IMG/VR virus record: IMGVR_UViG_3300049044_000033
Location: 286,796 to 350,795 of that record
Strand: one strand, 5' to 3'
From: a virus
Lineage: Duplodnaviria; Heunggongvirae; Uroviricota; Caudoviricetes
Length of the DNA stretch: 64,000 nt
The position numbers and the translations under genes were made by a program. The notes under the pieces were generated by a model. The model worked only from the letters and a program-made list of their open reading frames with translations. It had not been told where the DNA came from and searched no databases. Of this stretch, positions 578 to 42,793 are shown piece by piece. The stretch's first letter is position 1. Every line of letters begins with the position of its first letter.

Positions 578-1336
578 CTACTTATCAGTCTTCTTTAAGC
601 CGAAAGTCGCTTTTAGCCGTTCCACTAATGATTCTGTCGTCTTAGCTTCCTTTGGTTCATCCGTAGCCCCGGTCCACGAAGAGGAAGAATAAACTGGGAC
701 AGGTGGAGGAGACCCAGCTGATGTAATTTTAGGCGAACCGGCTAGAGAAGCATTTGACGTCGACACAGGAGGATTATAGACAGTATGACGCCTTGATAAA
801 TTAGCTTGCGCACTGGTCCCAGTGTGAAGCGTAGTAGAGCCTACATTTTGCCACCAGATCTGCGCGTTCTTTGCTCGAGCAATATTGTCAATCTCTTCTG
901 AATCAGCTAACTTGACCGTGCTTGCTAGTTTACGAGCAGCACGATGGAGAGCAGTCTGCGCATCTTCGAAATCCTTGAGCACACCTTCATAGAGTGGGTT
1001 AGTCAGAGTATTGCGCGCAAAGTCAACGATGATCTCGAAATTTTCGATAGTATCATGACCGCGGGGGAATATAGTTCTTAGAGCTTCAAGACGCTCCTTG
1101 TGCTCCGCTTCCGCTAATTCCTTTTTACGACGGTATTCGTCCATTCCTTCCATGTGCTCAATCGAGTCAATGGGATAACCAACACCAGTGCCATCGGAAA
1201 TGTAGAGCTTGTTAGAAGAATCATCTAGATACACTGATCCAGCCACATTTAGGGGATTAAATCCAGGCATTCCCGGCGGTCCACCTGGACCGCGTGGACC
1301 AGTTGCTCCCAATGCTCCATAGACTGTTTTGCTCAT
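578..1336 (-). CDS. hypothetical protein with short collagen-like N-terminal repeat
   Basis: GALGATGPRGPGGPPGMPG Gly-X-Y run; S/T/P-rich C-terminus; packed in operon. Confidence 0.65.
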   Translation of the reverse strand: MSKTVYGALGATGPRGPGGPPGMPGFNPLNVAGSVYLDDSSNKLYISDGTGVGYPIDSIEHMEGMDEYRRKKELAEAEHKERLEALRTIFPRGHDTIENFEIIVDFARNTLTNPLYEGVLKDFEDAQTALHRAARKLASTVKLADSEEIDNIARAKNAQIWWQNVGSTTLHTGTSAQANLSRRHTVYNPPVSTSNASLAGSPKITSAGSPPPVPVYSSSSWTGATDEPKEAKTTESLVERLKATFGLKKTDK

Positions 1337-7468: not shown

Positions 7469-7820
7469 GCTCGACCTTTACTATATCCGCAAACGTCATA
7501 CGGATTAGCATAGCGTCATCGGCAGATGCAAAATTCATATAGAGTCGGTAGCAGAAATCCATCAGCATAGATTTGGAAAAGACTTCATCCTCTCCGAGGT
7601 GCCAAACCCAGTGACCCTTGGCGATATTACCAACCTTGTTTAGGTTTTCCTGCAGTCTAGCGCCGAATGTCCCAACATCAAAGAGCAAGCTAGATCCGAG
7701 ATCGATCTTGTAGGTATAGGGCTCAATAAAATGAGCCAAATAATCTACCCTTTGAACCAGAAAGGGCATACCTATAATGATTTGAGGGGTTAGAACTGCT
7801 GGGCCGGAATATTTGTCCAT
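7422..7820 (-). CDS. hypothetical protein, DAML-motif family
   Basis: LYMNFASADDAMLIRMTF resembles the motif in 2559-2837. Confidence 0.6.
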   Translation of the reverse strand: MDKYSGPAVLTPQIIIGMPFLVQRVDYLAHFIEPYTYKIDLGSSLLFDVGTFGARLQENLNKVGNIAKGHWVWHLGEDEVFSKSMLMDFCYRLYMNFASADDAMLIRMTFADIVKVEHVNGRRVSRKAEADM

Positions 7821-7860
7821 TCCTAAACGGTATAAGGAATGGGAAATTTGTCAAGAGGAA

Positions 7861-7893
7861 ACCGAGAGAGTCACAGAACTCTCTCGGTCTCGA
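7861..7893 (-). terminator. hairpin after uvsY
   Basis: CGAGAGAG/CTCTCTCG inverted repeat. Confidence 0.55.
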
Positions 7894-7895
7894 AG

Positions 7896-8378
7896 TTAAC
7901 GGTTGTTATTACCGACTTCGTAATCCTCAAAGCCAGCTGCCTTAAGGCGGGTCAGGTTACTGATCTGCCAGTTCTTAGCATCTAGGCCTTTCATGATGGC
8001 TAGATACTGGTTGCGCACTAGAGCAATCTGGTTGACTAAGAGAGCAATCTCAATCACCTTATCATCAGCATCAGCATACTTCTCAGCATCACGAGAAGAA
8101 AGGCTACGCTGATAATGCTCTAAATACTTCTTGAACGCAGCGCCCTTGACCTGATTCATACGAATCTCAAGATAACGCAGGATGGCTTCAACTTCTTGAA
8201 GCTGACTGAAGCGTTCAGTTGTGATACCAGGGAGGCGGCTGCTGGCCTTCTCGATGCTACCCTTAAGCTGGGTATCATACTTTGCTGCTTCTAACTCCAT
8301 TTCATAATACTCAATAGCATCTATGAGTGGTGAAAAATCGTTAGGATCAGCAGTTACCTTGCTATACCACTTGCTCAT
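7896..8378 (-). CDS. uvsY: UvsY recombination mediator
   Basis: IEKASSRLPG...FSQLQEVEAIL...YLEHYQRSLSSRDAEKY...KGLDAKNWQISNLTRL; beside uvsX. Confidence 0.85.
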   Translation of the reverse strand: MSKWYSKVTADPNDFSPLIDAIEYYEMELEAAKYDTQLKGSIEKASSRLPGITTERFSQLQEVEAILRYLEIRMNQVKGAAFKKYLEHYQRSLSSRDAEKYADADDKVIEIALLVNQIALVRNQYLAIMKGLDAKNWQISNLTRLKAAGFEDYEVGNNNR

Positions 8379-8391
8379 TTGTTTTCCTTAT

Positions 8392-8429
8392 AATGGCTTC
8401 ACCTAATTTAACAACTAGGTGAAGCCATT
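8392..8429. repeat. 14-bp stem hairpin between the 79-aa ORF and uvsY
   Basis: AATGGCTTCACCTA/TAGGTGAAGCCATT. Confidence 0.7.
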
Positions 8430-19927: not shown

Positions 19928-20509
19928 TTAGATACGGACGCCTGGGATGAGTTCTGGCAGGCTGGTCATCAGACCATTGGCCAGAGTAGCGTTGTCGTAA
20001 CGGATGCTTAGAGTGATAGTCTGATAACCGCTTTCCGAGTATTCGAGTTCGCCATATTCAACGTTCTCGAGGAAGCAACCTTCTAGGGTCCAAGATTCCA
20101 CAACAGTATCGTTACCACCGTCCATAGTTTCGATGATAGTCACGAACTTGTAATTAACGCCTGCTGCGAAAGCAGTCTGTTCATAGTGGTTGAGCTGCTT
20201 CTGGATCTGGTGACCAACCATCTTAGCGATGTTGTTCGACAGATCATCCTTTAGCGTAACGCTGATGCTTTCCCACTTGTGCTTACCTGCATAGTAGGCA
20301 GTCGAGTTGTAGGAATGAACTTCAACAGGCTCATGTCCAATTTTTGGCTTGCTAACGCTCTGGACCTGCTGGGCGAAGTCTAGACCACCAGCGATTGGAC
20401 CAAAGTTAACAACGCGAACGCGGAAACGATGCTTAATCTTGAGTGCCAGGAGACCACCACGGCCCTGACCACCACCAAGGGGAACACCGAACTTAGAGAG
20501 AGTTTCCAT
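19928..20509 (-). CDS. gp19: tail tube protein
   Basis: LKIKHRFRV, YYAGKHKWESISVTLKDD, ESWTLEGCF, TLSIRYDNA. Confidence 0.85.
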   Translation of the reverse strand: METLSKFGVPLGGGQGRGGLLALKIKHRFRVRVVNFGPIAGGLDFAQQVQSVSKPKIGHEPVEVHSYNSTAYYAGKHKWESISVTLKDDLSNNIAKMVGHQIQKQLNHYEQTAFAAGVNYKFVTIIETMDGGNDTVVESWTLEGCFLENVEYGELEYSESGYQTITLSIRYDNATLANGLMTSLPELIPGVRI

Positions 20510-20600
20510 GGAGACCTCCGATCATAAATGAACTTCTTCAGTTTATTTATGCGGCGGTCAAATATACGTGGTTAACGTATTAGGAGTCTTGTAGTCATGG

Positions 20601-20631
20601 TAATGGCCCGGAATTTCTCCCGGGCCATTCT
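20601..20631 (-). terminator. hairpin after Ro60
   Basis: AATGGCCCGG/CCGGGCCATT. Confidence 0.6.
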
Positions 20632-20635
20632 CTCT

Positions 20636-22318
20636 TTACTTCGAGAAGAAGTCGCTCATGATCTGCGGTGCCGAAGCATCGAAGCCCACGAAATCCATCA
20701 TGCCCGAATCCTTAGGATCGGCAATCGTGAATCCCGTCGAGGTCATACCCAGTACCGCCAGCTTTGCAGGGATACCCATGCTCTGACGGAATGCCTTCAA
20801 AGCCTGTGAGGGCTGCTGACGACCAGCGTAAGTCTCGTTGTCCGTGTAGACAGCGAAGTTCTCCACGGGCAGCTTTGCGCTCAGCGCGTGAACCATCGGC
20901 AGCGAACAGTCAGTACCACCCATGTTCATCCGGTTGATCGTGTTAACCACGTCATCTAGCCTCTGACGGGGGCTGATCTTCAGTTCGCTGATTCCGTTGT
21001 TACCAGAAGTGAACGCCATGAACTCGTAAGAGGTCTCAACGTTCGCCGTGATCAGCGCCATAGCGGCCGAACCAACCCGAGGGGTCAGTCCCTGGATACC
21101 AGCACAGTTCTCCCAGGTCATGGATGCCGAAACGTCCAGTGCCAGAAGAGTGTTCTTACCAGTCGGCGTAACAGTCGCGAACGAACCGTAGAATGCCTGA
21201 TCCAGCGCATCAACAATGCCACGGACCGGAGTCCAAACATTGCTGCCCCTAGTGCCCTTGCCCTGACCATAGGTCAGGAAAGCCGCCAGGATCGCAATCG
21301 GGTGCAGACGTGCCTTACGGATCACATCAGCATCTGACAGCTTGCTCTTGATCAGCTTCTCGGCATTCGACATAGGCGTCAGCAAGCCAACGCTCGACAT
21401 CTTACCGAGGTTGCGGATCATCGCGTTGAGCGGCATGTTGGTCAGCAACGCTTCCCAGACCTTGGGATCATTCAGGAACTGAGTCGGGATAGCCTCACGG
21501 GGGAGGTTTGCATCCTGGATCAGCTTGATGATCTCATTCGCCTGAGTTGCCTGCTTCGCAGCCTCGAATGCCTGGATCTGCGGGTGCAGGATTGCCGAAG
21601 CATCGTTACGCGCAATGGAAACATAGTTGCCATTTGTCAGCGAACCATACACATAGTCCTTACCCTTGACCGCAGTCATACCGCCGGTCATCCAGCGCAG
21701 AACAGCCTCACGCTGCGCATCGTCTGCCTTGGGGTGAGCGAGACGCAGCATGTCGCGGTGCGACCAACCATCACGTGCCTGGTACTTGATTGCCTGATTG
21801 GCCAGACGATCAACCGGCATTTCCAGGTACCAGTTCGCTACAGCACGACGCAGAGCACGGCCCCAGCCGCGCAGACCGTCGATGAACTCGGCGAAGTGGA
21901 ACAAGTGGGTGCCGATACGAGCAACCTTCGGCAGAGCCTCAAGAGCAGCCTTACGAGTTGCCTCATTGTCTGCGGAAGCCGCCAGTGCCAGCACAAACAG
22001 CGCAGGGTCGTTCTTGGGAGCGCGACCTGCGTCGCTGATCTCAACCACGCGGTTTACAACGCGAACGCCGTCCTCGTTGATGAGGCGGATCACGTTCTGA
22101 GCATTCTGCTTGGTCAGCTTTTGCTCACTCACGTAGTAGGTGCCGCTCTCGGTTCCGAGAATCAAGAAACGGTCAAGCTGGTCCCACGCATTAAGCGTGA
22201 AAGAGAAGCCACCGGCGTTGTTCTTGGACATGTCGGCCTCGCGACCAGGAATTACCTGAGTCTGCGGAGTTGCCTTGGTGTTGATGGTACCAGACAGAGT
22301 CTTGGTGTAGTTGGTCAT
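20636..22318 (-). CDS. ro60: Ro60 / TROVE-vWA RNA-binding protein
   Basis: NNAGGFSF, LDRFLILGTESGTYY, RIGTHLFHF, KYQARDGWSHRDMLRLAHP, MIRNLGKM, vWA MIDAS LDVSASM...GGTDC...TDNET; true start ATG 22318 with SD AGGAG. Confidence 0.95.
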   Translation of the reverse strand: MTNYTKTLSGTINTKATPQTQVIPGREADMSKNNAGGFSFTLNAWDQLDRFLILGTESGTYYVSEQKLTKQNAQNVIRLINEDGVRVVNRVVEISDAGRAPKNDPALFVLALAASADNEATRKAALEALPKVARIGTHLFHFAEFIDGLRGWGRALRRAVANWYLEMPVDRLANQAIKYQARDGWSHRDMLRLAHPKADDAQREAVLRWMTGGMTAVKGKDYVYGSLTNGNYVSIARNDASAILHPQIQAFEAAKQATQANEIIKLIQDANLPREAIPTQFLNDPKVWEALLTNMPLNAMIRNLGKMSSVGLLTPMSNAEKLIKSKLSDADVIRKARLHPIAILAAFLTYGQGKGTRGSNVWTPVRGIVDALDQAFYGSFATVTPTGKNTLLALDVSASMTWENCAGIQGLTPRVGSAAMALITANVETSYEFMAFTSGNNGISELKISPRQRLDDVVNTINRMNMGGTDCSLPMVHALSAKLPVENFAVYTDNETYAGRQQPSQALKAFRQSMGIPAKLAVLGMTSTGFTIADPKDSGMMDFVGFDASAPQIMSDFFSK

Positions 22319-22430
22319 AGTCTTTCTCCTTCTTCGGCTCGCGAAACCCACGAGCAAGGTTGGTCCCTGACATTAGGACCGGATATTCGATCTAGATGTT
22401 GCTTATAAGATAGCGGACAGTGTTAGTCAA
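22319..22430 (-). promoter_or_regulatory. sigma70-like promoter and structured leader of ro60
   Basis: TTGACT(22425-30)-N17-TATAAG(22402-07); leader hairpins GGTCC/GGACC and GCTCGT/GCGAGC. Confidence 0.7.
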
Positions 22431-22704
22431 GCGCCTTTTTAAGGGCGCTCAAGACTTCCTCGGTGCTGTTGAAGACCCCGCTGATCATTGCAGGCTTATG
22501 AAGCACGACATGAATACAGTTTGGACCAAAGAATCGAATCAAGCCATAACCTTCGAAGCGACCGTTTCCGGGCTTGCGGTTATTCCACCTGGTTCGATAA
22601 GTTCCACCGACAGTGAATTCATCGTAGCGATAATTGTTTTCCACGCCGAGCAAATCTGCGACGTCTTGGTAGAACTGCTCTACCGACTCATTTTCCTTTT
22701 CCAT
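22423..22704 (-). CDS. hypothetical protein
   Basis: ORF with own TTGACA-N17-TTAAAT promoter (22711-22739). Confidence 0.65.
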   Translation of the reverse strand: MEKENESVEQFYQDVADLLGVENNYRYDEFTVGGTYRTRWNNRKPGNGRFEGYGLIRFFGPNCIHVVLHKPAMISGVFNSTEEVLSALKKALD

Positions 22705-22778
22705 GTTTCTATTTAAACACAAGAAAGGAATCTTGTCAAGTAAGGGGAAGAATCTTTCATCTTCCCCTTACTAGTCAG

Positions 22779-23426
22779 TTACTTTACTAGACGGAGCAAA
22801 GTAACCGAAGCAGTCAGACCGACCTTTTGAGTCAGGTCCAAACTCGAAGCACCGCCCATGTCGGCACTAGCCGCGACAGCATACGAGGCAGATTCCAGCA
22901 TGATACCACGGCTATTAGCCATCTTCATGCGAGGTGCCGAACCGAACTGAATCGTTCCAACGCGCCATTCATACGCAGAACCAGCACCTAAGACTTGGTT
23001 AAGAAGCAAAGCTTCATCCTGAGCCTTAATGTAAAGTTCCTTGCGTAGATTGGCCACAGCCTCATCCACAACATTGCGAGCCGGATTGTAGTCGAGATCA
23101 CCAATCTTCAACTGAAGGCCTTCACGACTTGCGTCCTTTGCCTTAGCGGCGAGGCCGGCCAACTGACCTTCAGCAACTCGAACGGTTGCAGTTGCTTCCA
23201 CTTCTTCCAGACCTGACCGATTGGTCGTGCGGTCTAGCTTTGCGAAAGCCCAGTCGGCATCAAGGAGCGTTTTCAGCGAACCCAGGATCGTACCACGCAC
23301 ATCAGTGGCATCTTCTGCCTTAGTGGCTAGAACTACTTCAACACTGACCTTGACAGTGTCGCTCACAATAGCCTCTTCGGCTGAGAGCTCGATATAAACC
23401 GAGTCTTGAATTTCCTGATTGCTCAT
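22779..23426 (-). CDS. SIMPL/DUF541-like protein
   Basis: LSAEEAIVSDTVKVSV...KAQDEA...ASYAVAASA...LTASVTL follows SIMPL architecture; strong SD AGGAGG. Confidence 0.5.
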   Translation of the reverse strand: MSNQEIQDSVYIELSAEEAIVSDTVKVSVEVVLATKAEDATDVRGTILGSLKTLLDADWAFAKLDRTTNRSGLEEVEATATVRVAEGQLAGLAAKAKDASREGLQLKIGDLDYNPARNVVDEAVANLRKELYIKAQDEALLLNQVLGAGSAYEWRVGTIQFGSAPRMKMANSRGIMLESASYAVAASADMGGASSLDLTQKVGLTASVTLLRLVK

Positions 23427-23458
23427 GTGGTTTCCCTCCTACAAATCCGATCTAAAAA

Positions 23459-23741
23459 TGGAGGGGGTGCCGGGCAGGGCGAACCATACCCGGCGGGGTT
23501 TGAGATTGCTACACAGAGTGTAGCACCCTACTATTTCAACAGCAACAGCGCAGCCTTTGAGCACAAAGCTCGAGAGCAAGTATTGTGGTGGACCGGGTCT
23601 TAGCGGACATCTATAGAGCGCCGTAGCTGTCTATAGAGCCTAACCCTAAGTTAGACCGAAGTCTATTCCACGCTGTTGAAGTCTATGTTCGGGTTCTCTC
23701 TATTTGTCATAGATAACCCACCAACATCGGCTCTTCGATCT
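23459..23741 (-). ncRNA. candidate structured ncRNA B (about 280 nt)
   Basis: TTGACA(23766-71)-N17-TATACA(23743-48); cUUCGg hairpin 23652-65; cUACGg hairpin 23610-37; 9-bp long-range helix 23672-80 with 23535-43; final UUCG hairpin then TTTTT. Confidence 0.6.
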
Positions 23742-23782
23742 CTGTATAGAGGATAGCAACCAATATGTCAATAACCGATCTC

Positions 23783-24120
23783 GGTAGTTGAGGCAGGACC
23801 CAGATCTGGGACTTACGACCAAGGCCAGCCCACCTGCTATTATTCGCTCCTTCCAACTTGGGATTCGCCGGCGGAACTACTAGACCCAATCCATGATCAC
23901 TTAGAATGGGGTTAGGGGTGATATTTCCCTTACTCAACTACCAAAGGCCTAAAAGGCCGTATCACTAGAGACGCGCTCGACGCCTCGTTACACTTTACCG
24001 AGTTAATCCTCAGCCACTTACAACCCCCCGGCGCCACCCGGGCCATCCTTTATGTGTCAGCACACATCCCAGTCACCGGCTGTAAGCTATATGGGTTCAG
24101 GAACAATGTCCCTTAGTGCC
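23783..24120 (-). ncRNA. candidate structured ncRNA A (about 340 nt)
   Basis: TTGCGC(24151-56)-N17-TATAAG(24128-33); begins GGCACT; perfect 10-bp long-range helix 23933-42 with 23783-92; no credible ORF. Confidence 0.55.
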
Positions 24121-24180
24121 AGTAACTCTTATACGGCAGAACGGTGATGGGCGCAATATCTTTCTAAACCTTTTATTCAT

Positions 24181-24214
24181 GGGAATGACCCGGACTTTCA
24201 TCCGGGTCATTCTC
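24181..24214 (-). terminator. hairpin after tail sheath
   Basis: GAATGACCCGGA/TCCGGGTCATTC. Confidence 0.65.
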
Positions 24215-24220
24215 TTTGTC

Positions 24221-26614
24221 TTACTGGAACAATGCGCCGAGGTCATCACCAGTTGCGACGATACGAACTGGAATGTAGATGAACTCGATTGCCTGCACTG
24301 GCTGGATTGCGATATCAACCCACAGTTCGTGACGATCAATGCGCTCTGGAGTATTGTTGGATTCATCACAAACCACAACAAAGTCGTGAAGACCGCGAAG
24401 ACCAACAAGGTCAGCCAAGAAGCGTTCGAATGAAGTCCTAACAGCATCACGAGTCTGGAAATCATTTGGTTCGAAGAGGAATGGCTTCGAGAGATTATCC
24501 AGGTTGTAACGCAGGTAGTTGATCAAACGAGCAACGTTGATACGATCCAAAGCAGTGTCTAGGTTGTGACGGGTCTTCTGACCATACATAACCAGACCAC
24601 GATTTGGGATATAGGCAATTGGGTTAATCTTGTTGCTGTAGAGCAAATCACGCTGACCGTTGTTCAGCAGAGCTGCCTTGAACTCGCCCTGATCATCCAA
24701 GTAACCAACGCTCGAAGCATTAGTGACAAGACCGCGAGTATAACCTGCAGGTGCCATCCACTGGTAGCTAACCGAGTCGTTGTAAGCTAGAGTGCGGAGT
24801 GCGATGGTCGAAGGTGGAACCATGATCTCATTACCATCGACGTTGGTGCTCAGACCCCATGGGTAATACATGCCCACGTATGGGTTGAAAGTGCTTACGC
24901 CCGACTCAGTGTTGCCGTTGGCAGCATTAGTCGCGAAGGTAGTGATCGAAGCACCATCTGGCTTCAAGCGAACAGGAGTATCACCAACGATGAAAGCAAC
25001 TTCCTTCATATCGGTATTTAGAGTGACCATTTCGTCAATCAGCTCAATGTAGCCAGGGGCTGCGAGCAGGTTGAAGTAAACGGTTTCTGCACGAATGTCC
25101 TCGTTGCTCGAGATAGTTTCAGCAAGAGCCTTAACAATCATCTGGCGCTGTGCCTTGCGGCCGAAGAATGGAACACCGTTAGTCTGGTAACCAGAAACGT
25201 TTGTCCAAGTGCCAGTTGCCTCGACATACTGCTTAACATCATTGGTCGAAGCTGAAAGATCATAAAGCTTCATACCTTCAGGGAAGTTCAACGCAGTGGT
25301 CGAAGCAGCTTCACCAAACGCAATACCATCAATTGGATCAATGTTGTCTGCGGTGTTGATTGCCTTCCAGAGACCATTGTTGTAACGGTACATCTTTGGG
25401 AAATTCTCAGTGTCTGAGGTATCTACCCACAGGTCATTCTCGACCAGCGGAGCACCAGTCGACTGAGCAGTAGGCTGACTACCAAGAAGGATAACACCGT
25501 TGATGTCAGTCGATGAGTAGTAGGTCTTATAAGGGACCCACGAACCACCATCGTTGACCTTGATGTTAACCGAGATGCTGCCATTGTTGTACCACAGAGT
25601 ACCATCAGCTGGAGGGCTAGTTGGCTCGGTAGCACCGGCTTCTTCCTTGAGGGCAACCCAGTTTGAACCGTTATAACGACGGAATTCAAACACTGCTTGG
25701 TCTGCTTCATGGCTCAGGTAAACCGAACCAGTGATCTGACCCAAGCCCGACTGCTTTGCTACGCTGTAGATAGGAACCAGGGTCTCATCCCAAACACCAG
25801 TACCGATGTTAAAGGTCTTCAACAACCAAGTTGCCGCAGCCGAAATAGAAGTAACAACGCTTGGAGTTTCGAGAACCAAAACGTCACCTACGCCGCCAGT
25901 TGCTGGACGGTAAGTGTTGTAGAGTAGCTCTGCGCTACCACCCTTGGCAGTCTTCCAAGCAGCCGAACCAACAATCAGCCAAGAATCAGCTACGCGCTGG
26001 TAGAGAACCTTCTTATCGTAGAAGACAACCATAGCAAAGTCGCCATTGACTGCTTCAGTGATCTTTGGAGGCAACTGACCAGGGTAAACTTCAGGTGCTT
26101 CTGAATCCAGCGAAGCTAGATCATCAACAACCCACAGGTCACGCTCTGCCCACTCGCTACCGGTCCATTCGTAAATGCCCCAAGTATTGTTAGTGGTGTC
26201 AAGCCAGTTGGTACCGTGTTCTGCTTCAGAAACCGGAGCAGTAGTCCTTGGCATAAGCTGAGCGAAATCGATCGCTGCGCGAATCACAAATGCGCGGTTA
26301 GCAATACCAAGGTACTGGTATGCCGCATGAAGACCGAACTCGTTGAGTTCGTAGCCGTGAACGGAAGTACCGTTACGGGTGTAGAAAATTGGATTACCAA
26401 ACGTCTGGAGGAGTTCGCGCTGGCTCGTGATTGGGTAGAGCTTGTTCGCGTTCTCTGGCAGCGTGCCCTCAGCTACACCACTACCACTTGGTAGTGACTT
26501 GTATTCGTGAGTGCCGATAATGATCAGCGGAACAGTGCCTTCGCCAGCCGTTGCGTAGTAGGATTCGTCGGTGACGGTAACAGAAGTACCGGGCGACACT
26601 AGAGGATATACCAT
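24221..26614 (-). CDS. gp18: tail sheath protein
   Basis: LVSPGTSVTVTDES, NELNEFGLHAAY-like segment, FNLLAAPGY, WMAPAGYTRG, YGQKT, LDRINVARL, EFIYIPVRI. Confidence 0.95.
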   Translation of the reverse strand: MVYPLVSPGTSVTVTDESYYATAGEGTVPLIIIGTHEYKSLPSGSGVAEGTLPENANKLYPITSQRELLQTFGNPIFYTRNGTSVHGYELNEFGLHAAYQYLGIANRAFVIRAAIDFAQLMPRTTAPVSEAEHGTNWLDTTNNTWGIYEWTGSEWAERDLWVVDDLASLDSEAPEVYPGQLPPKITEAVNGDFAMVVFYDKKVLYQRVADSWLIVGSAAWKTAKGGSAELLYNTYRPATGGVGDVLVLETPSVVTSISAAATWLLKTFNIGTGVWDETLVPIYSVAKQSGLGQITGSVYLSHEADQAVFEFRRYNGSNWVALKEEAGATEPTSPPADGTLWYNNGSISVNIKVNDGGSWVPYKTYYSSTDINGVILLGSQPTAQSTGAPLVENDLWVDTSDTENFPKMYRYNNGLWKAINTADNIDPIDGIAFGEAASTTALNFPEGMKLYDLSASTNDVKQYVEATGTWTNVSGYQTNGVPFFGRKAQRQMIVKALAETISSNEDIRAETVYFNLLAAPGYIELIDEMVTLNTDMKEVAFIVGDTPVRLKPDGASITTFATNAANGNTESGVSTFNPYVGMYYPWGLSTNVDGNEIMVPPSTIALRTLAYNDSVSYQWMAPAGYTRGLVTNASSVGYLDDQGEFKAALLNNGQRDLLYSNKINPIAYIPNRGLVMYGQKTRHNLDTALDRINVARLINYLRYNLDNLSKPFLFEPNDFQTRDAVRTSFERFLADLVGLRGLHDFVVVCDESNNTPERIDRHELWVDIAIQPVQAIEFIYIPVRIVATGDDLGALFQ

Positions 26615-42136: not shown

Positions 42137-42793
42137 ATGAATACGCCACCCAAATATCCATCGAGTCCTCATTGGGTTGATTCTCCCGAAGTTCATCGGG
42201 ACGATTCAACCCATCAAAATCCCGAGTTCTTCTTGGGTCGTGAGGTAGTGATAACTGAGAAGCTTGACGGCGGTAACACCTGCCTTAACGCAGGTGAAGT
42301 ATATGCCAGATCAACAGGTCAACCTGCTACTCAGAGTTGGTTCGCGATGGTTAAAAAGCATCATGCTTGGCGGACCATTGACATTGATCCTCGCATCTCA
42401 GTTTATGGAGAAGACCTTTACGGCATTCATTCCATTACCTATGATGCCTTGAAAGAAGATGAGACTTATCGGGTCTTCAATATCCGAGAAGATGACGAGT
42501 GGCTTTCCTTGGATGAAAAGATTGCGTTCTGTGAAGAGCATCAGTTCATCATGGTTCCCATTCTCTTCCGAGGGGTCTTCAACAGCATCAAGGAAATCAC
42601 AAAGTGGTTTGATAGCCACGTTAAAGAGCCGAGCGCCCTTGGTCCAGAGCGTGAGGGTTTTGTGATGCAGATTACCGATCGTTTTCATAATGACAACTTT
42701 GCGACCTCGGTAGCAAAGTATGTCCGAAAGGGCCATGTTCAAACTGATGAGCATTGGACTCGCAACTGGAAGCCTGCCGCTCTATTGAAGTAG
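42137..42793 (+). CDS. RNA ligase, Rnl2-type nucleotidyltransferase domain only
   Basis: Motif I TEKLDG, III YGE, IIIa VFNI, IV EGFV, V AKYV. Confidence 0.8.
   Translation: MNTPPKYPSSPHWVDSPEVHRDDSTHQNPEFFLGREVVITEKLDGGNTCLNAGEVYARSTGQPATQSWFAMVKKHHAWRTIDIDPRISVYGEDLYGIHSITYDALKEDETYRVFNIREDDEWLSLDEKIAFCEEHQFIMVPILFRGVFNSIKEITKWFDSHVKEPSALGPEREGFVMQITDRFHNDNFATSVAKYVRKGHVQTDEHWTRNWKPAALLK

What the first reader, a model, noticed from the sequence alone, without database searches (positions are those of the whole stretch)
20601..24214. Ro60 island with its own structured RNAs, inserted between tail tube and tail sheath
gp18 and gp19 are adjacent in T4. Here 3.6 kb separates them, holding ro60 (intact MIDAS), a small ORF, a SIMPL-like ORF and two promoter-driven structured RNAs. 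All lie on one strand under four sigma70-like promoters, with hairpins at each end. Established: bacterial Ro60 binds Y/Yrl RNAs encoded nearby and acts in RNA decay and repair (PNPase, RtcB contexts). Inference: a phage Ro60 RNP whose RNA partners are much larger than typical Y RNAs, possibly countering RNA-damaging defences or redirecting host RNA turnover.
Basis: partly seen in the sequence, partly recalled or inferred. Interest (0 to 1): 0.8.

Follow-up and report, generated by a model that had tools for sequence, protein, structure and literature searches.

The report
Ro60 cassette beside conserved phage RNA
A 462-kb jumbo phage carries a Ro60 RNA-chaperone gene cassette between its tail sheath and tail tube genes, next to a roughly 350-base pseudoknotted RNA gene; that RNA belongs to an unclassified family that many related phages keep at the same spot without Ro60, so it is not simply Ro60's private partner.

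Summary
On the minus strand, between the tail sheath (24221-26614) and tail tube (19928-20509) genes, lie an intact Ro60 (TROVE+vWA, MIDAS present), a 93-aa clade-specific ORF, a SIMPL-fold ORF and 794 nt of structured non-coding DNA.

RNA1 (24127-23775) is a real RNA gene: 90.7% of cells pair, 27 of 35 pairs show compensatory changes, and one pseudoknot pair covaries without exception. It belongs to a family absent from Rfam. The family occurs once per genome in about 50 jumbo-phage contigs.

- In at least 14 contigs RNA1 lies directly before the tube gene with no Ro60.
- One 97%-complete genome has RNA1 and no Ro60-like gene.
- Atu_ph07 has Ro60 at this position but no RNA1.

RNA2 (about 23737-23430) is lineage-specific and ends in a helix that sequesters the orf215 ribosome-binding site. 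It is absent from most Ro60-bearing relatives. No YrlA-like RNA was detected.

Best reading: Ro60, orf93 and orf215 are variable cargo in a sheath-tube hot spot beside an ancestral RNA gene. A Y-like role for RNA1's 3' domain remains a weak lead.

An earlier follow-up agent of this scan reported the same RNA family on other DNA.

The parts
24221..26614 (-). Tail sheath gene (797 aa)
   Evidence: phrog_10581 E=5.5e-252; Pfam Phage_sheath_1C 5.3e-16
24177..24214 (-). Gene-end hairpin A (13-bp stem) followed by CCCAUGA
   Evidence: Folds at -24.5 kcal/mol. The same kind of element follows the sheath gene in all 9 relatives checked, with different stems.
24128..24156 (-). RNA1 promoter-like site TTGCGC-N17-TATAAG
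   Evidence: Read from the sequence. TTG and TA.A are invariant in 6 aligned relatives. Not listed by the simple scan.
23987..24127 (-). RNA1 core: P1, pseudoknot CCCA(24095-24092)/UGGG(24071-24068), P2-P5
   Evidence: Model R1 scores it at 110.8 bits, E=1.4e-20. Across 34 sequences, 90.7% of cells pair, 27 of 35 pairs show compensatory changes, and the pseudoknot pair reads CG:22 UA:12 with none broken.
23775..23986 (-). RNA1 3' domain: multi-helix junction closed by GGUAGUUGAG/CUCAACUACC, junction strands AGUAG and CGAAUA, 3' tail GAUCG
   Evidence: fold_alignment of 11 sequences gives 81 pairs, 51 with compensatory changes. The distance from the core start to GAUCG is 343-368 nt in 15 loci.
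23743..23771 (-). RNA2 promoter-like site TTGACA-N17-TATACA
   Evidence: Read from the sequence. Retained as TTGACG-N17-TAAATA in Phosso.
23430..23737 (-). RNA2: structured RNA or leader ending in a UUCG-capped hairpin (23495-23468) and an anti-SD/SD helix (CCCUCC with GGAGGG 23439-23434)
   Evidence: Window versus L006: 70 predicted pairs, 6 compensatory, including the SD-sequestering helix. nhmmer finds homologues only in L006/L078 and L090.
22779..23426 (-). orf215, cytoplasmic SIMPL-fold protein
   Evidence: The AF2 model's top PDB hits are 7C50 and 4HVZ. Atlas TM is 0.78 to a cluster partly annotated SIMPL. No Pfam hit. 11 homologues.
22423..22704 (-). orf93, a small basic protein found only in this jumbo-phage clade, with core RTRWNNRKPGNGRFEG; TTGACA-N17-TTAAAT lies immediately upstream
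   Evidence: 44 homologues, all in phage-sized contigs. Alignment. No significant fold match.
20636..22318 (-). Ro60 (TROVE ring plus vWA with MIDAS), 560 aa
   Evidence: Pfam matches. PDB 2NVO at E=3e-124 with MIDAS residues aligned. It is the only phrog_850/TROVE gene in the genome.
20595..20629 (-). Gene-end hairpin B followed by ACCAUGA
   Evidence: Folds at -26.9 kcal/mol. It is a near copy of hairpin A, and these are the only two close copies in 462 kb. An equivalent element follows Ro60 in most relatives checked.
20544..20550 (-). T4-type late-promoter-like box ATAAATA before the tube gene
   Evidence: CAUAAAUA(C/A) recurs about 35-45 nt before the tube start codon in relatives. Its identity as a late promoter is inferred from knowledge of the T4 late promoter.
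19928..20509 (-). Tail tube gene (193 aa)
   Evidence: phrog_4542 E=2.4e-59

Best explanation
The locus is a composite of two things.

(1) RNA1 is an ancestral, promoter-driven, stable non-coding RNA gene. Its conserved core is about 140 nt, pseudoknotted, and belongs to a family not in Rfam. The family is inherited between the sheath and tube genes of a large clade of T4-related jumbo phages, and its function does not depend on an adjacent Ro60.

(2) orf215 (SIMPL fold), orf93 and Ro60 are variable accessory cargo. They were acquired in one subclade in the gap between RNA1 and the tube's late promoter, which also takes up homing endonucleases and an intron in relatives.

In the cargo-bearing subclade RNA1 has an extra 3' multi-helix domain of about 210 nt and, in the window's own group, no terminator. 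It is therefore probably transcribed together with the cargo. RNA2 is a lineage-specific structured leader that masks the orf215 ribosome-binding site.

By homology with Rsr and phage phiLo Ro60, Ro60 is inferred to be a ring-shaped binder of structured or misfolded RNA 3' ends. It would act on phage or host RNAs (the genome has 62 tRNAs and Rnl1- and Rnl2-type ligases), possibly by tethering or damping host PNPase. Its RNA partner in this clade is not identified.

Shown here: the gene identities, the RNA structures, the distribution and the decoupling of RNA1 from Ro60. Inferred: transcription, the function of Ro60 and the leader role of RNA2.
For: RNA1 is real and structured.
- Model R1 gives 34, 25 and 14 hits in three sets of loci, one per locus.
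- Covariation: 90.7% of cells pair against 63% in shuffles and about 42% when partners are slid; the covariation score is 0.726 against 0.209, exceeded by 0 of 500 shuffles.
- Full-length fold: 51 of 81 pairs show compensatory changes.

RNA1 and Ro60 are decoupled.
- RNA1 is followed by the tube gene within 217-410 nt, with no cargo, in 14 loci.
- RNA1 occurs once in each of six genomes.
- In G004 it lies 160 kb from the TROVE-like gene.
- G007 is 97% complete and has RNA1 but no phrog_850 member.
- Atu_ph07 has orf-Ro60 between sheath and tube but no RNA1 at E<=1.
- None of about 45 actinophage Ro60 loci has RNA1.

RNA1 behaves as an independent gene.
- In minimal loci it ends in an intrinsic terminator, followed by an ATAAATA box and the tube gene.
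- In L066 and L212 it lies among tRNA genes.

The cargo is variable.
- Seen combinations are orf93 alone, orf215+orf93, orf93+Ro60, all three, and Ro60 alone.
- Homing endonucleases and a group I intron occur nearby in L223, L222 and PA5oct.

RNA2.
- It is found only in the window, L006 and L090, with a diverged form in Phosso, L081 and L207.
- The SD-sequestering helix is kept through compensatory changes.

Ro60 identity and context.
- Identity.
- RNA-repair context: Rnl2 and Rnl1 present, no RtcB, 62 tRNAs.
- Literature: Ro60 with Y-like RNAs and PNPase (PMC4201824, PMC12135203); TROVE in some jumbo phages (PMC7824862).
Against: - In every cargo-bearing locus RNA1 lies directly upstream of, and on the same strand as, the Ro60 cassette, including the divergent lineages L014, L181 and L073.
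- The extra 3' domain is seen only where cargo is present.
- A junction CGAA is kept in 12 of 13 Ro60-bearing loci and altered in all 3 independent lineages that have the extended RNA but no Ro60.
- Four of five near-complete RNA1-bearing genomes encode some Ro60-superfamily protein.
- No transcript data could be obtained, so the promoters, the RNA ends and co-transcription are all inferred.
Confidence: 0.6

Rival explanations
1. Modified version of the first reader's model. RNA1 (through its added 3' domain) and/or RNA2 are oversized Y-like RNAs. They dock on the phage Ro60 and tether it to an effector that is recognised by the ancestral pseudoknotted core.
For: - RNA1, RNA2 and Ro60 are on the same strand within 2.3 kb of one another. 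This is the same rule used to find YrlA RNAs (PMC4201824).
- The RNA1 3' domain occurs only in cargo-bearing loci.
- The junction CGAA is kept in 12 of 13 Ro60+ loci and in 0 of 3 Ro60- loci with the extended RNA, an uncorrected Fisher p of about 0.007.
- RNA2 begins with GAUCGAAG (GACGAAG in Phosso), close to the GNCGAA motif, and its 5' GAGAU can pair with the 3' AUCUC.
- RNA1 has a conserved single-stranded 3' tail after a helix, the kind of end that the Ro60 cavity accepts (background knowledge, not tested).
Against: - The RNA1 core persists without Ro60, and Ro60 occurs without RNA1.
- L222 is Ro60+ but reads UGAA at the junction.
- RNA2 is absent from most Ro60+ loci: L002, L004, L005, L217, L219, L222, L223 and L075.
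- There is no YrlA hit at E<=10, although the positive control works.
- The CGAA lies in a multi-helix junction, not in a stem-bulge-stem.
- The sample is small and the sequences are phylogenetically related.
Confidence: 0.25
2. The whole 794-nt stretch is a cis-acting leader (riboswitch- or attenuator-like) of the downstream operon, not a set of RNA genes.
For: - There is no terminator between RNA1 and the cargo in the window's group.
- The SD of orf215 is sequestered by a conserved helix.
- RNA1 always points towards the next gene.
Against: - In minimal loci RNA1 has its own terminator and is followed by a separate late-promoter-like box.
- RNA1 precedes unrelated genes, or tRNAs, in different phages.
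- A second promoter-like site lies between RNA1 and RNA2.
Confidence: 0.12
3. The stretch encodes small proteins (for example the 76-aa ORF at 23707-23937; Phosso CDS 394 and 395 are annotated in the equivalent region) rather than RNAs.
For: - ORF listing shows a 76-aa TTG ORF.
- Phosso annotators called two small CDS there.
Against: - The substitutions are compensatory in helices rather than frame-preserving.
- The ORF has no family hit.
- The ORF is not among the ORFs of 70 aa or more listed for most relatives.
Confidence: 0.03

Closest known systems
Bacterial Rsr (Ro60) with Y RNAs (Yrn1, YrlA/YrlB); mycobacteriophage Ro60 with YrlA-like RNAs (PMC4201824)
   Same: The protein is a full-length Ro60 orthologue: TROVE ring, vWA domain with MIDAS, and 2NVO at E=3e-124. 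Non-coding RNAs are encoded within a few kb on the same strand.
   Different: - No RNA here matches the YrlA model.
- No tRNA-like T or D arm was detected.
- The adjacent RNAs are 300-350 nt, against about 100-200 nt for YrlA.
- The best-conserved RNA is distributed independently of Ro60.
Thermus phage phiLo Ro60 with Yrl1 and Yrl2, which bind host PNPase (PMC12135203)
   Same: A phage-encoded Ro60 with candidate RNAs directly upstream that carry CGAA motifs. This gives a plausible mechanism: capture or damping of host PNPase.
   Different: - The phiLo Yrls are small stem-bulge-stem RNAs, whereas here the CGAA lies in a multi-helix junction of an ornate RNA.
- Binding has not been tested here.
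- The extra partners orf93 and the SIMPL-like protein have no counterpart in phiLo.
Large ornate phage-associated RNAs of unknown function (GOLLD RF01998, ROOL RF03087)
   Same: RNA1 is a long, multi-domain, strongly covarying RNA. It is encoded by phages, sometimes beside tRNA genes, and its function is unknown.
   Different: - No Rfam match at E<=10.
- RNA1 is smaller, about 350 nt.
- It has a fixed position between the tail sheath and tube genes.
- It was seen only in jumbo-phage contigs: 0 of 80 pattern matches in prokaryote genomes were real.
Hyperplastic regions and mobile regulatory cassettes of T4-type phages (promoter-stem-loop elements flanking accessory ORFs; recalled from the literature, not tested here)
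   Same: Accessory genes with their own promoter-like sites and matching stem-loops are inserted between conserved structural genes. Gene content varies among relatives.
   Different: The stem-loops here follow the genes (hairpin plus YCCAUGA) and are also conserved after the core sheath gene. No evidence was obtained that they mediate recombination.

Membership tests
Ro60/Rsr (TROVE family) | TROVE HEAT-repeat ring domain | tested here: met
   Pfam PF05731 E=2.3e-44, above cut-off; residues 17-570 align to Rsr 2NVO.
Ro60/Rsr (TROVE family) | C-terminal vWA domain with MIDAS (DxSxS, T, D) | tested here: met
   PF25045 E=1.3e-56; DVSAS, GGTDC and YTDNET align with the Rsr residues.
Ro60/Rsr (TROVE family) | Binds Y RNA or misfolded RNA 3' ends | not testable with these tools
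   Needs EMSA or RIP.
YrlA / bacterial Y RNA (Rfam RF02553) | Match to the YrlA covariance model (tRNA-like T and D arms plus Ro-binding stem) | tested here: not met
   No hit at E<=10 in 20400-24400, nor at E<=1 in 8 related loci. The positive control, phage Sparky, scores 36.6 bits, E=1.7e-4.
YrlA / bacterial Y RNA (Rfam RF02553) | Encoded within about 4 kb of Ro60 on the same strand | tested here: met
   RNA1 and RNA2 lie 1.1-1.8 kb upstream of Ro60 on the minus strand.
YrlA / bacterial Y RNA (Rfam RF02553) | GNCGAAN0-1G / CGAA motif in the Ro-binding stem-bulge-stem formed by the 5' and 3' ends | tested here: inconclusive
   - RNA2's 5' end reads GAUCGAAG (Phosso GACGAAG), with a possible 5-bp end pairing.
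- The RNA1 CGAA lies in a junction, not a terminal stem.
- There are too few sequences to test this by covariation.
YrlA / bacterial Y RNA (Rfam RF02553) | Co-occurs with Ro60 across genomes | tested here: not met
   - RNA1 occurs without Ro60 in at least 14 loci and in G007.
- Ro60 occurs without RNA1 in Atu_ph07.
- RNA2 is absent from most Ro60+ loci.
SIMPL (PF04402/DUF541, BP26-like) | SIMPL fold | tested here: met
   The top two Foldseek PDB hits are 7C50 (E=8.7e-6) and 4HVZ (E=3.9e-5, TM 0.52). Atlas structure TM is 0.78.
SIMPL (PF04402/DUF541, BP26-like) | Sequence match to the Pfam model | tested here: not met
   PF04402 does not hit, even at E<=10.
Any described RNA family (Rfam 15) | Covariance-model match for RNA1 or RNA2 | tested here: not met
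   There are no gathering-score hits in the window. Nothing relevant appears at E<=10 or E<=1 in relatives.
Intrinsic terminator (for hairpins A and B) | GC-rich stem followed directly by a U tract on the transcribed strand | tested here: not met
   The stems are strong, but on the minus strand they are followed by CCCAUGAAUAAAAGG and ACCAUGACUACAAG, not by a U run. The scan lists them only on the plus strand.

The most novel reading that the evidence does not exclude
RNA1 is a modular 'giant Y RNA'. An ancient pseudoknotted core binds a still unknown phage or host effector. In one subclade a 3' junction domain (AGUAG ... CGAAUA plus a GAUCG tail) was grafted on as the docking site for a newly acquired Ro60. 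Ro60 would thereby be tethered to that effector during infection, possibly with orf93 as a small RNA-binding cofactor.
Probability: 0.15. Interest if true: 0.85.

Novelty: new variant of a known kind. Interest (0 to 1): 0.6.

Why it matters
Phage Ro60 genes with small Y-like RNAs are already known. What is unusual here is their neighbour. RNA1 is a roughly 350-nt, strongly covarying, pseudoknotted RNA family. It has a fixed, single-copy position between the two main tail genes of many huge phages, is absent from Rfam and was not found in the papers searched.

The result gives RNA biologists a new ornate RNA class with a clear evolutionary anchor. It also offers natural variants: a core-only form and a form with an added 3' domain, found with and without Ro60.

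A cultured model, Sinorhizobium phage Phosso, has the same layout. The question of whether Ro60 uses this RNA can therefore be tested directly.

The work also corrects annotation. Small CDS called in this gap in Phosso probably overlie RNA.

Tried and rejected
- **Ro60-orf93 complex.** Complex prediction of Ro60 with orf93 gave no verdict, so nothing follows from it.
- **blastn of the spacer.** The 794-nt spacer finds nothing in phage GenBank records at E<=0.01. Relatives had to be found through protein synteny and a degenerate motif.
- **AGAUCGR motif.** It occurs three times in the spacer and looked like a module-junction or processing motif. Genome-wide, its threefold strand excess comes from coding (K/E-I-E/D codons) and GGAG-AUCG Shine-Dalgarno contexts. 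I dropped it, except for the conserved GAUCG at the RNA1 3' end.
- **Hairpins as insertion scars.** Rejected, because equivalent hairpin+YCCAUGA elements with different stems follow both the sheath gene and Ro60 in relatives.
- **orf93 fold.** The best PDB Z is 5.6 (Mediator Med17; aaRS anticodon-binding domains and ribosome hibernation factors at Z 4-5), which is within noise. AFDB returns only one unnamed homologue.
- **'Complete genome without Ro60'.** I first based this claim on Pfam TROVE alone and had to soften it. phrog_850 finds a DUF2828+DUF7788 protein, a distant vWA-containing relative, in G003 and G002. G007 remains negative.
- **CGAA-Ro60 correlation.** Kept only as a lead, because L222 breaks it.
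- **RNA1 in prokaryote genomes.** 0 of the first 80 of 107 pattern matches are real.
- **Recalled similarities.** Resemblances to RNase P, the ZTP riboswitch and group I intron core motifs, recalled from memory, did not hold on inspection and are not claimed.

Full report
**What is there.**

The window belongs to a complete 462,455-bp virus record with terminal repeats. All features below are on the minus strand.

| Feature | Coordinates | Evidence |
|---|---|---|
| Tail sheath gene | 24221-26614 | |
| Non-coding stretch (794 nt) | 24220-23427 | |
| orf215 | 23426-22779 | |
| Small ORF (orf93) | 22704-22423 | |
| Ro60 | 22318-20636 | |
| Tail tube gene | 20509-19928 | |
| Second tube paralogue | 19917-18874 | |

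- Ro60 is intact. TROVE and vWA_Ro60 score far above their Pfam cut-offs. It aligns end to end with D. radiodurans Rsr (2NVO, E=3e-124) and has the MIDAS residues DVSAS, GGTDC and YTDNET.
- orf215 has no Pfam hit, but its AlphaFold model's two best PDB matches are the SIMPL proteins 7C50 and BP26 4HVZ. The ESM Atlas agrees.
- orf93 has 44 homologues, all on phage-sized contigs. Its invariant basic core reads RTRWNNRKPGNGRFEG, and it has no recognisable fold relative.
- The spacer folds better than shuffles, z=-3.9. It contains no tRNA and no Rfam family.

**RNA1 is a real RNA.**

A degenerate motif taken from six aligned relatives (CCTGAACCNATA, 8-18 nt, GACTRGG) hit 43 IMG/VR contigs. On inspection about 40 of these shared the surrounding hairpins.

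I built a covariance model (R1: 142 positions, 31 pairs) from 33 sequences.
- It finds exactly one hit per locus, at 63-119 bits. The window's hit is at 23987-24127, 110.8 bits.
- It finds more hits among metagenome loci.
- It finds none in about 45 actinophage Ro60 loci.
- It finds none among 80 chance pattern matches in prokaryote genomes.

On the model-aligned set, with a pseudoknot added by hand:
- 90.7% of cells pair, against 63% in shuffles and about 42% when partners are slid.
- 27 of 35 pairs show compensatory changes.
- The covariation score is 0.726 against 0.209, exceeded by 0 of 500 shuffles.
- The pseudoknot pair is C-G in 22 sequences and U-A in 12, with no exception.

The core contains these elements, in order:
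1. P1 hairpin.
2. GAA.
3. CCYA, the 5' strand of the pseudoknot.
4. P2, 5' strand.
5. GGUGAC.
6. URGG, the 3' strand of the pseudoknot.
7. P3.
8. UAAAGGUA.
9. P4.
10. P2, 3' strand.
11. P5, with loop ARUUNA.

In the window's subclade a helix made by the 5' end closes the core. A 3' domain of about 210 nt follows. It is a multi-helix junction closed by GGUAGUUGAG/CUCAACUACC, and the RNA ends in an invariant GAUCG 343-368 nt from the start in 15 loci. In the full-length fold 51 of 81 predicted pairs have compensatory changes.

A TTG-N17-TA.A promoter-like site is conserved 9-10 nt before the first helix.

**RNA1 does not belong to Ro60.**

Mapping the window's proteins onto all RNA1-bearing loci gives three groups.
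- In 14 loci RNA1 is followed within 217-410 nt by the tube gene, with nothing between. In several of them RNA1 ends in a textbook terminator, followed by a CAUAAAUAC box and the tube gene.
- Cargo-bearing loci carry orf93 alone, orf215+orf93, orf93+Ro60, all three, or Ro60 alone.
- In L066 and L212 RNA1 lies among tRNA genes.

RNA1 occurs once in each of six large genomes.
- In G004 it is 160 kb from the only TROVE-like gene.
- G007 (561 kb, 97% complete) has RNA1 but no member of phrog_850, the PHROG that covers Ro60 and its distant DUF2828/DUF7788 relatives.
- G003 (complete) lacks a canonical TROVE gene and has only such a distant relative, 146 kb away.

Conversely, the cultured relative Atu_ph07 has small ORFs and Ro60 between sheath and tube but no RNA1. 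Its spacer is ordinary coding DNA behind a terminator and a promoter. PA5oct has a homing endonuclease in this gap, and GAP32 has 108 nt.

**RNA2.**

RNA2 starts after TTGACA-N17-TATACA. It has clear homologues only in L006/L078 and L090. A diverged version sits in Phosso, L081 and L207. All of these loci whose downstream sequence is available carry both orf215 and Ro60; L090 ends at the contig edge.

RNA2 is absent from Ro60-bearing loci that lack orf215: L002, L004, L005, L217, L219, L222, L223 and L075. It is also absent from the orf215 loci L058 and L059.

Between the window and L006, six predicted pairs change on both sides and stay paired. These include a helix in which CCCUCC masks the orf215 Shine-Dalgarno GGAGGG; the equivalents in L006 are UUCCCU and AGGGAA.

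I read RNA2 as a structured leader of orf215. A role as an independent small RNA is not excluded. Its 5' GAUCGAAG (GACGAAG in Phosso) resembles the Y RNA CGAA motif, but there are too few sequences to test the terminal stem.

**Is there a Y RNA?**

Rfam's YrlA model detects the Y RNA beside the Ro60 of Mycobacterium phage Sparky (36.6 bits, E=1.7e-4). It detects nothing in the window at E<=10, and nothing in eight related loci, including Atu_ph07, at E<=1.

The only RNA shared by all Ro60-bearing loci of the RNA1 clade is RNA1 itself.
- Its 3' domain is confined to cargo-bearing loci.
- A junction CGAA is kept in 12 of 13 Ro60-bearing loci.
- That CGAA is changed by one base in each of the three independent lineages that have the extended RNA but no Ro60: L069, L058 and L059/L202.
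- L222 is an exception. It has Ro60 but reads UGAA.

This gives an uncorrected p of about 0.007 on related sequences. It is a lead, not a finding.

**The hairpins.**

The two matched hairpins are the only close copies in the genome. In nine relatives a 12-16-bp hairpin with a GAAA-type loop followed by YYCCAUGA follows both the sheath gene and, in most of them, Ro60. The stems differ between genomes. On the transcribed strand no U tract follows.

They are a conserved gene-end element of unknown mechanism. They are not insertion scars or canonical terminators.

**Mechanism.**

By homology, Ro60 should bind structured RNAs and thread single-stranded 3' ends through its ring. In D. radiodurans and in phage phiLo it acts together with Y-type RNAs and PNPase (PMC4201824, PMC12135203).

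This phage also encodes 62 tRNAs and Rnl1- and Rnl2-type RNA ligases, but no RtcB. That fits the RNA-repair setting proposed for jumbo phages (PMC7824862).

Which RNA Ro60 binds here, and what RNA1's core does, could not be determined. No transcript data were available, and the Ro60-orf93 complex prediction gave no verdict.

**Verdict.**

- The cassette is a new member of the known phage-Ro60 kind.
- The neighbouring RNA1 is a well-supported RNA family that is not in Rfam.
- An earlier follow-up agent of this scan reached the same conclusion on another genome (e1-5372765). I reproduced it independently here.

Noticed in passing
window 24177-24214 and 20595-20629; L002, L004-L006, L217, L219, L222, L223 after sheath and Ro60: A 12-16-bp hairpin with a GAAA-type loop followed by YYCCAUGA(C)U recurs after the sheath gene and, in most relatives, after Ro60. 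The stems differ between genomes while the tail is conserved. No U tract follows, so it may be a processing or stabilising signal rather than a terminator.
   Followed up: partly
L006:4404-4600, L002:5396-5600, also L217, L219, L222, L223, L090: A third structured element ('RNA-X', about 200 nt: GGGGGCC..CCCC hairpin, GUGGAAG.UGAA.GGCAUAG, GGCAGACC) follows RNA1 in several Ro60-bearing relatives. It is absent from the window.
   Followed up: no
window 22704-22739: orf93 has TTGACA-N17-TTAAAT, with its ATG only about 5 nt after the -10 box and no Shine-Dalgarno. The same layout is seen in L004, L005 and L069. The mRNA may be leaderless.
   Followed up: no
L223:8537-8753; L223:5088-5834 and 7628-8428; L222:6646-7065; L225:1230-2846: Mobile elements occupy the sheath-tube interval in relatives: a group I intron (Rfam 83 bits), GIY-YIG/NUMOD3 homing endonuclease genes, and a Hef-like endonuclease in PA5oct. 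The interval is a hot spot for mobile elements.
   Followed up: no
L066:3400-3440 and L212 (downstream of 617-764, minus strand): In two divergent phages RNA1 lies directly next to tRNA genes instead of between sheath and tube. This suggests a stable RNA matured together with tRNAs.
   Followed up: no
genome C1:153582-190483; C1:329034-329519 (window 42239-42724); C1:400394-400948: The phage carries 62 tRNA genes, including two with anticodon CUA. It also has an Rnl2-type and a T4 Rnl1-type RNA ligase, but no RtcB.
   Followed up: partly
L227:2175-3563 (G003) and G002:C1:287880-289268: A 463-474-aa DUF2828+DUF7788 (vWA-like) protein scores about 500 bits with phrog_850, the same PHROG as Ro60, yet has no TROVE hit. 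It may be a distant Ro60-like family in RNA1-bearing phages that lack Ro60.
   Followed up: partly
L001 (Phosso) CDS 394 and 395; L224 (Atu_ph07) gp128: Phosso CDS 395 overlies the RNA2-like region and may be a miscalled ORF.
   Followed up: no
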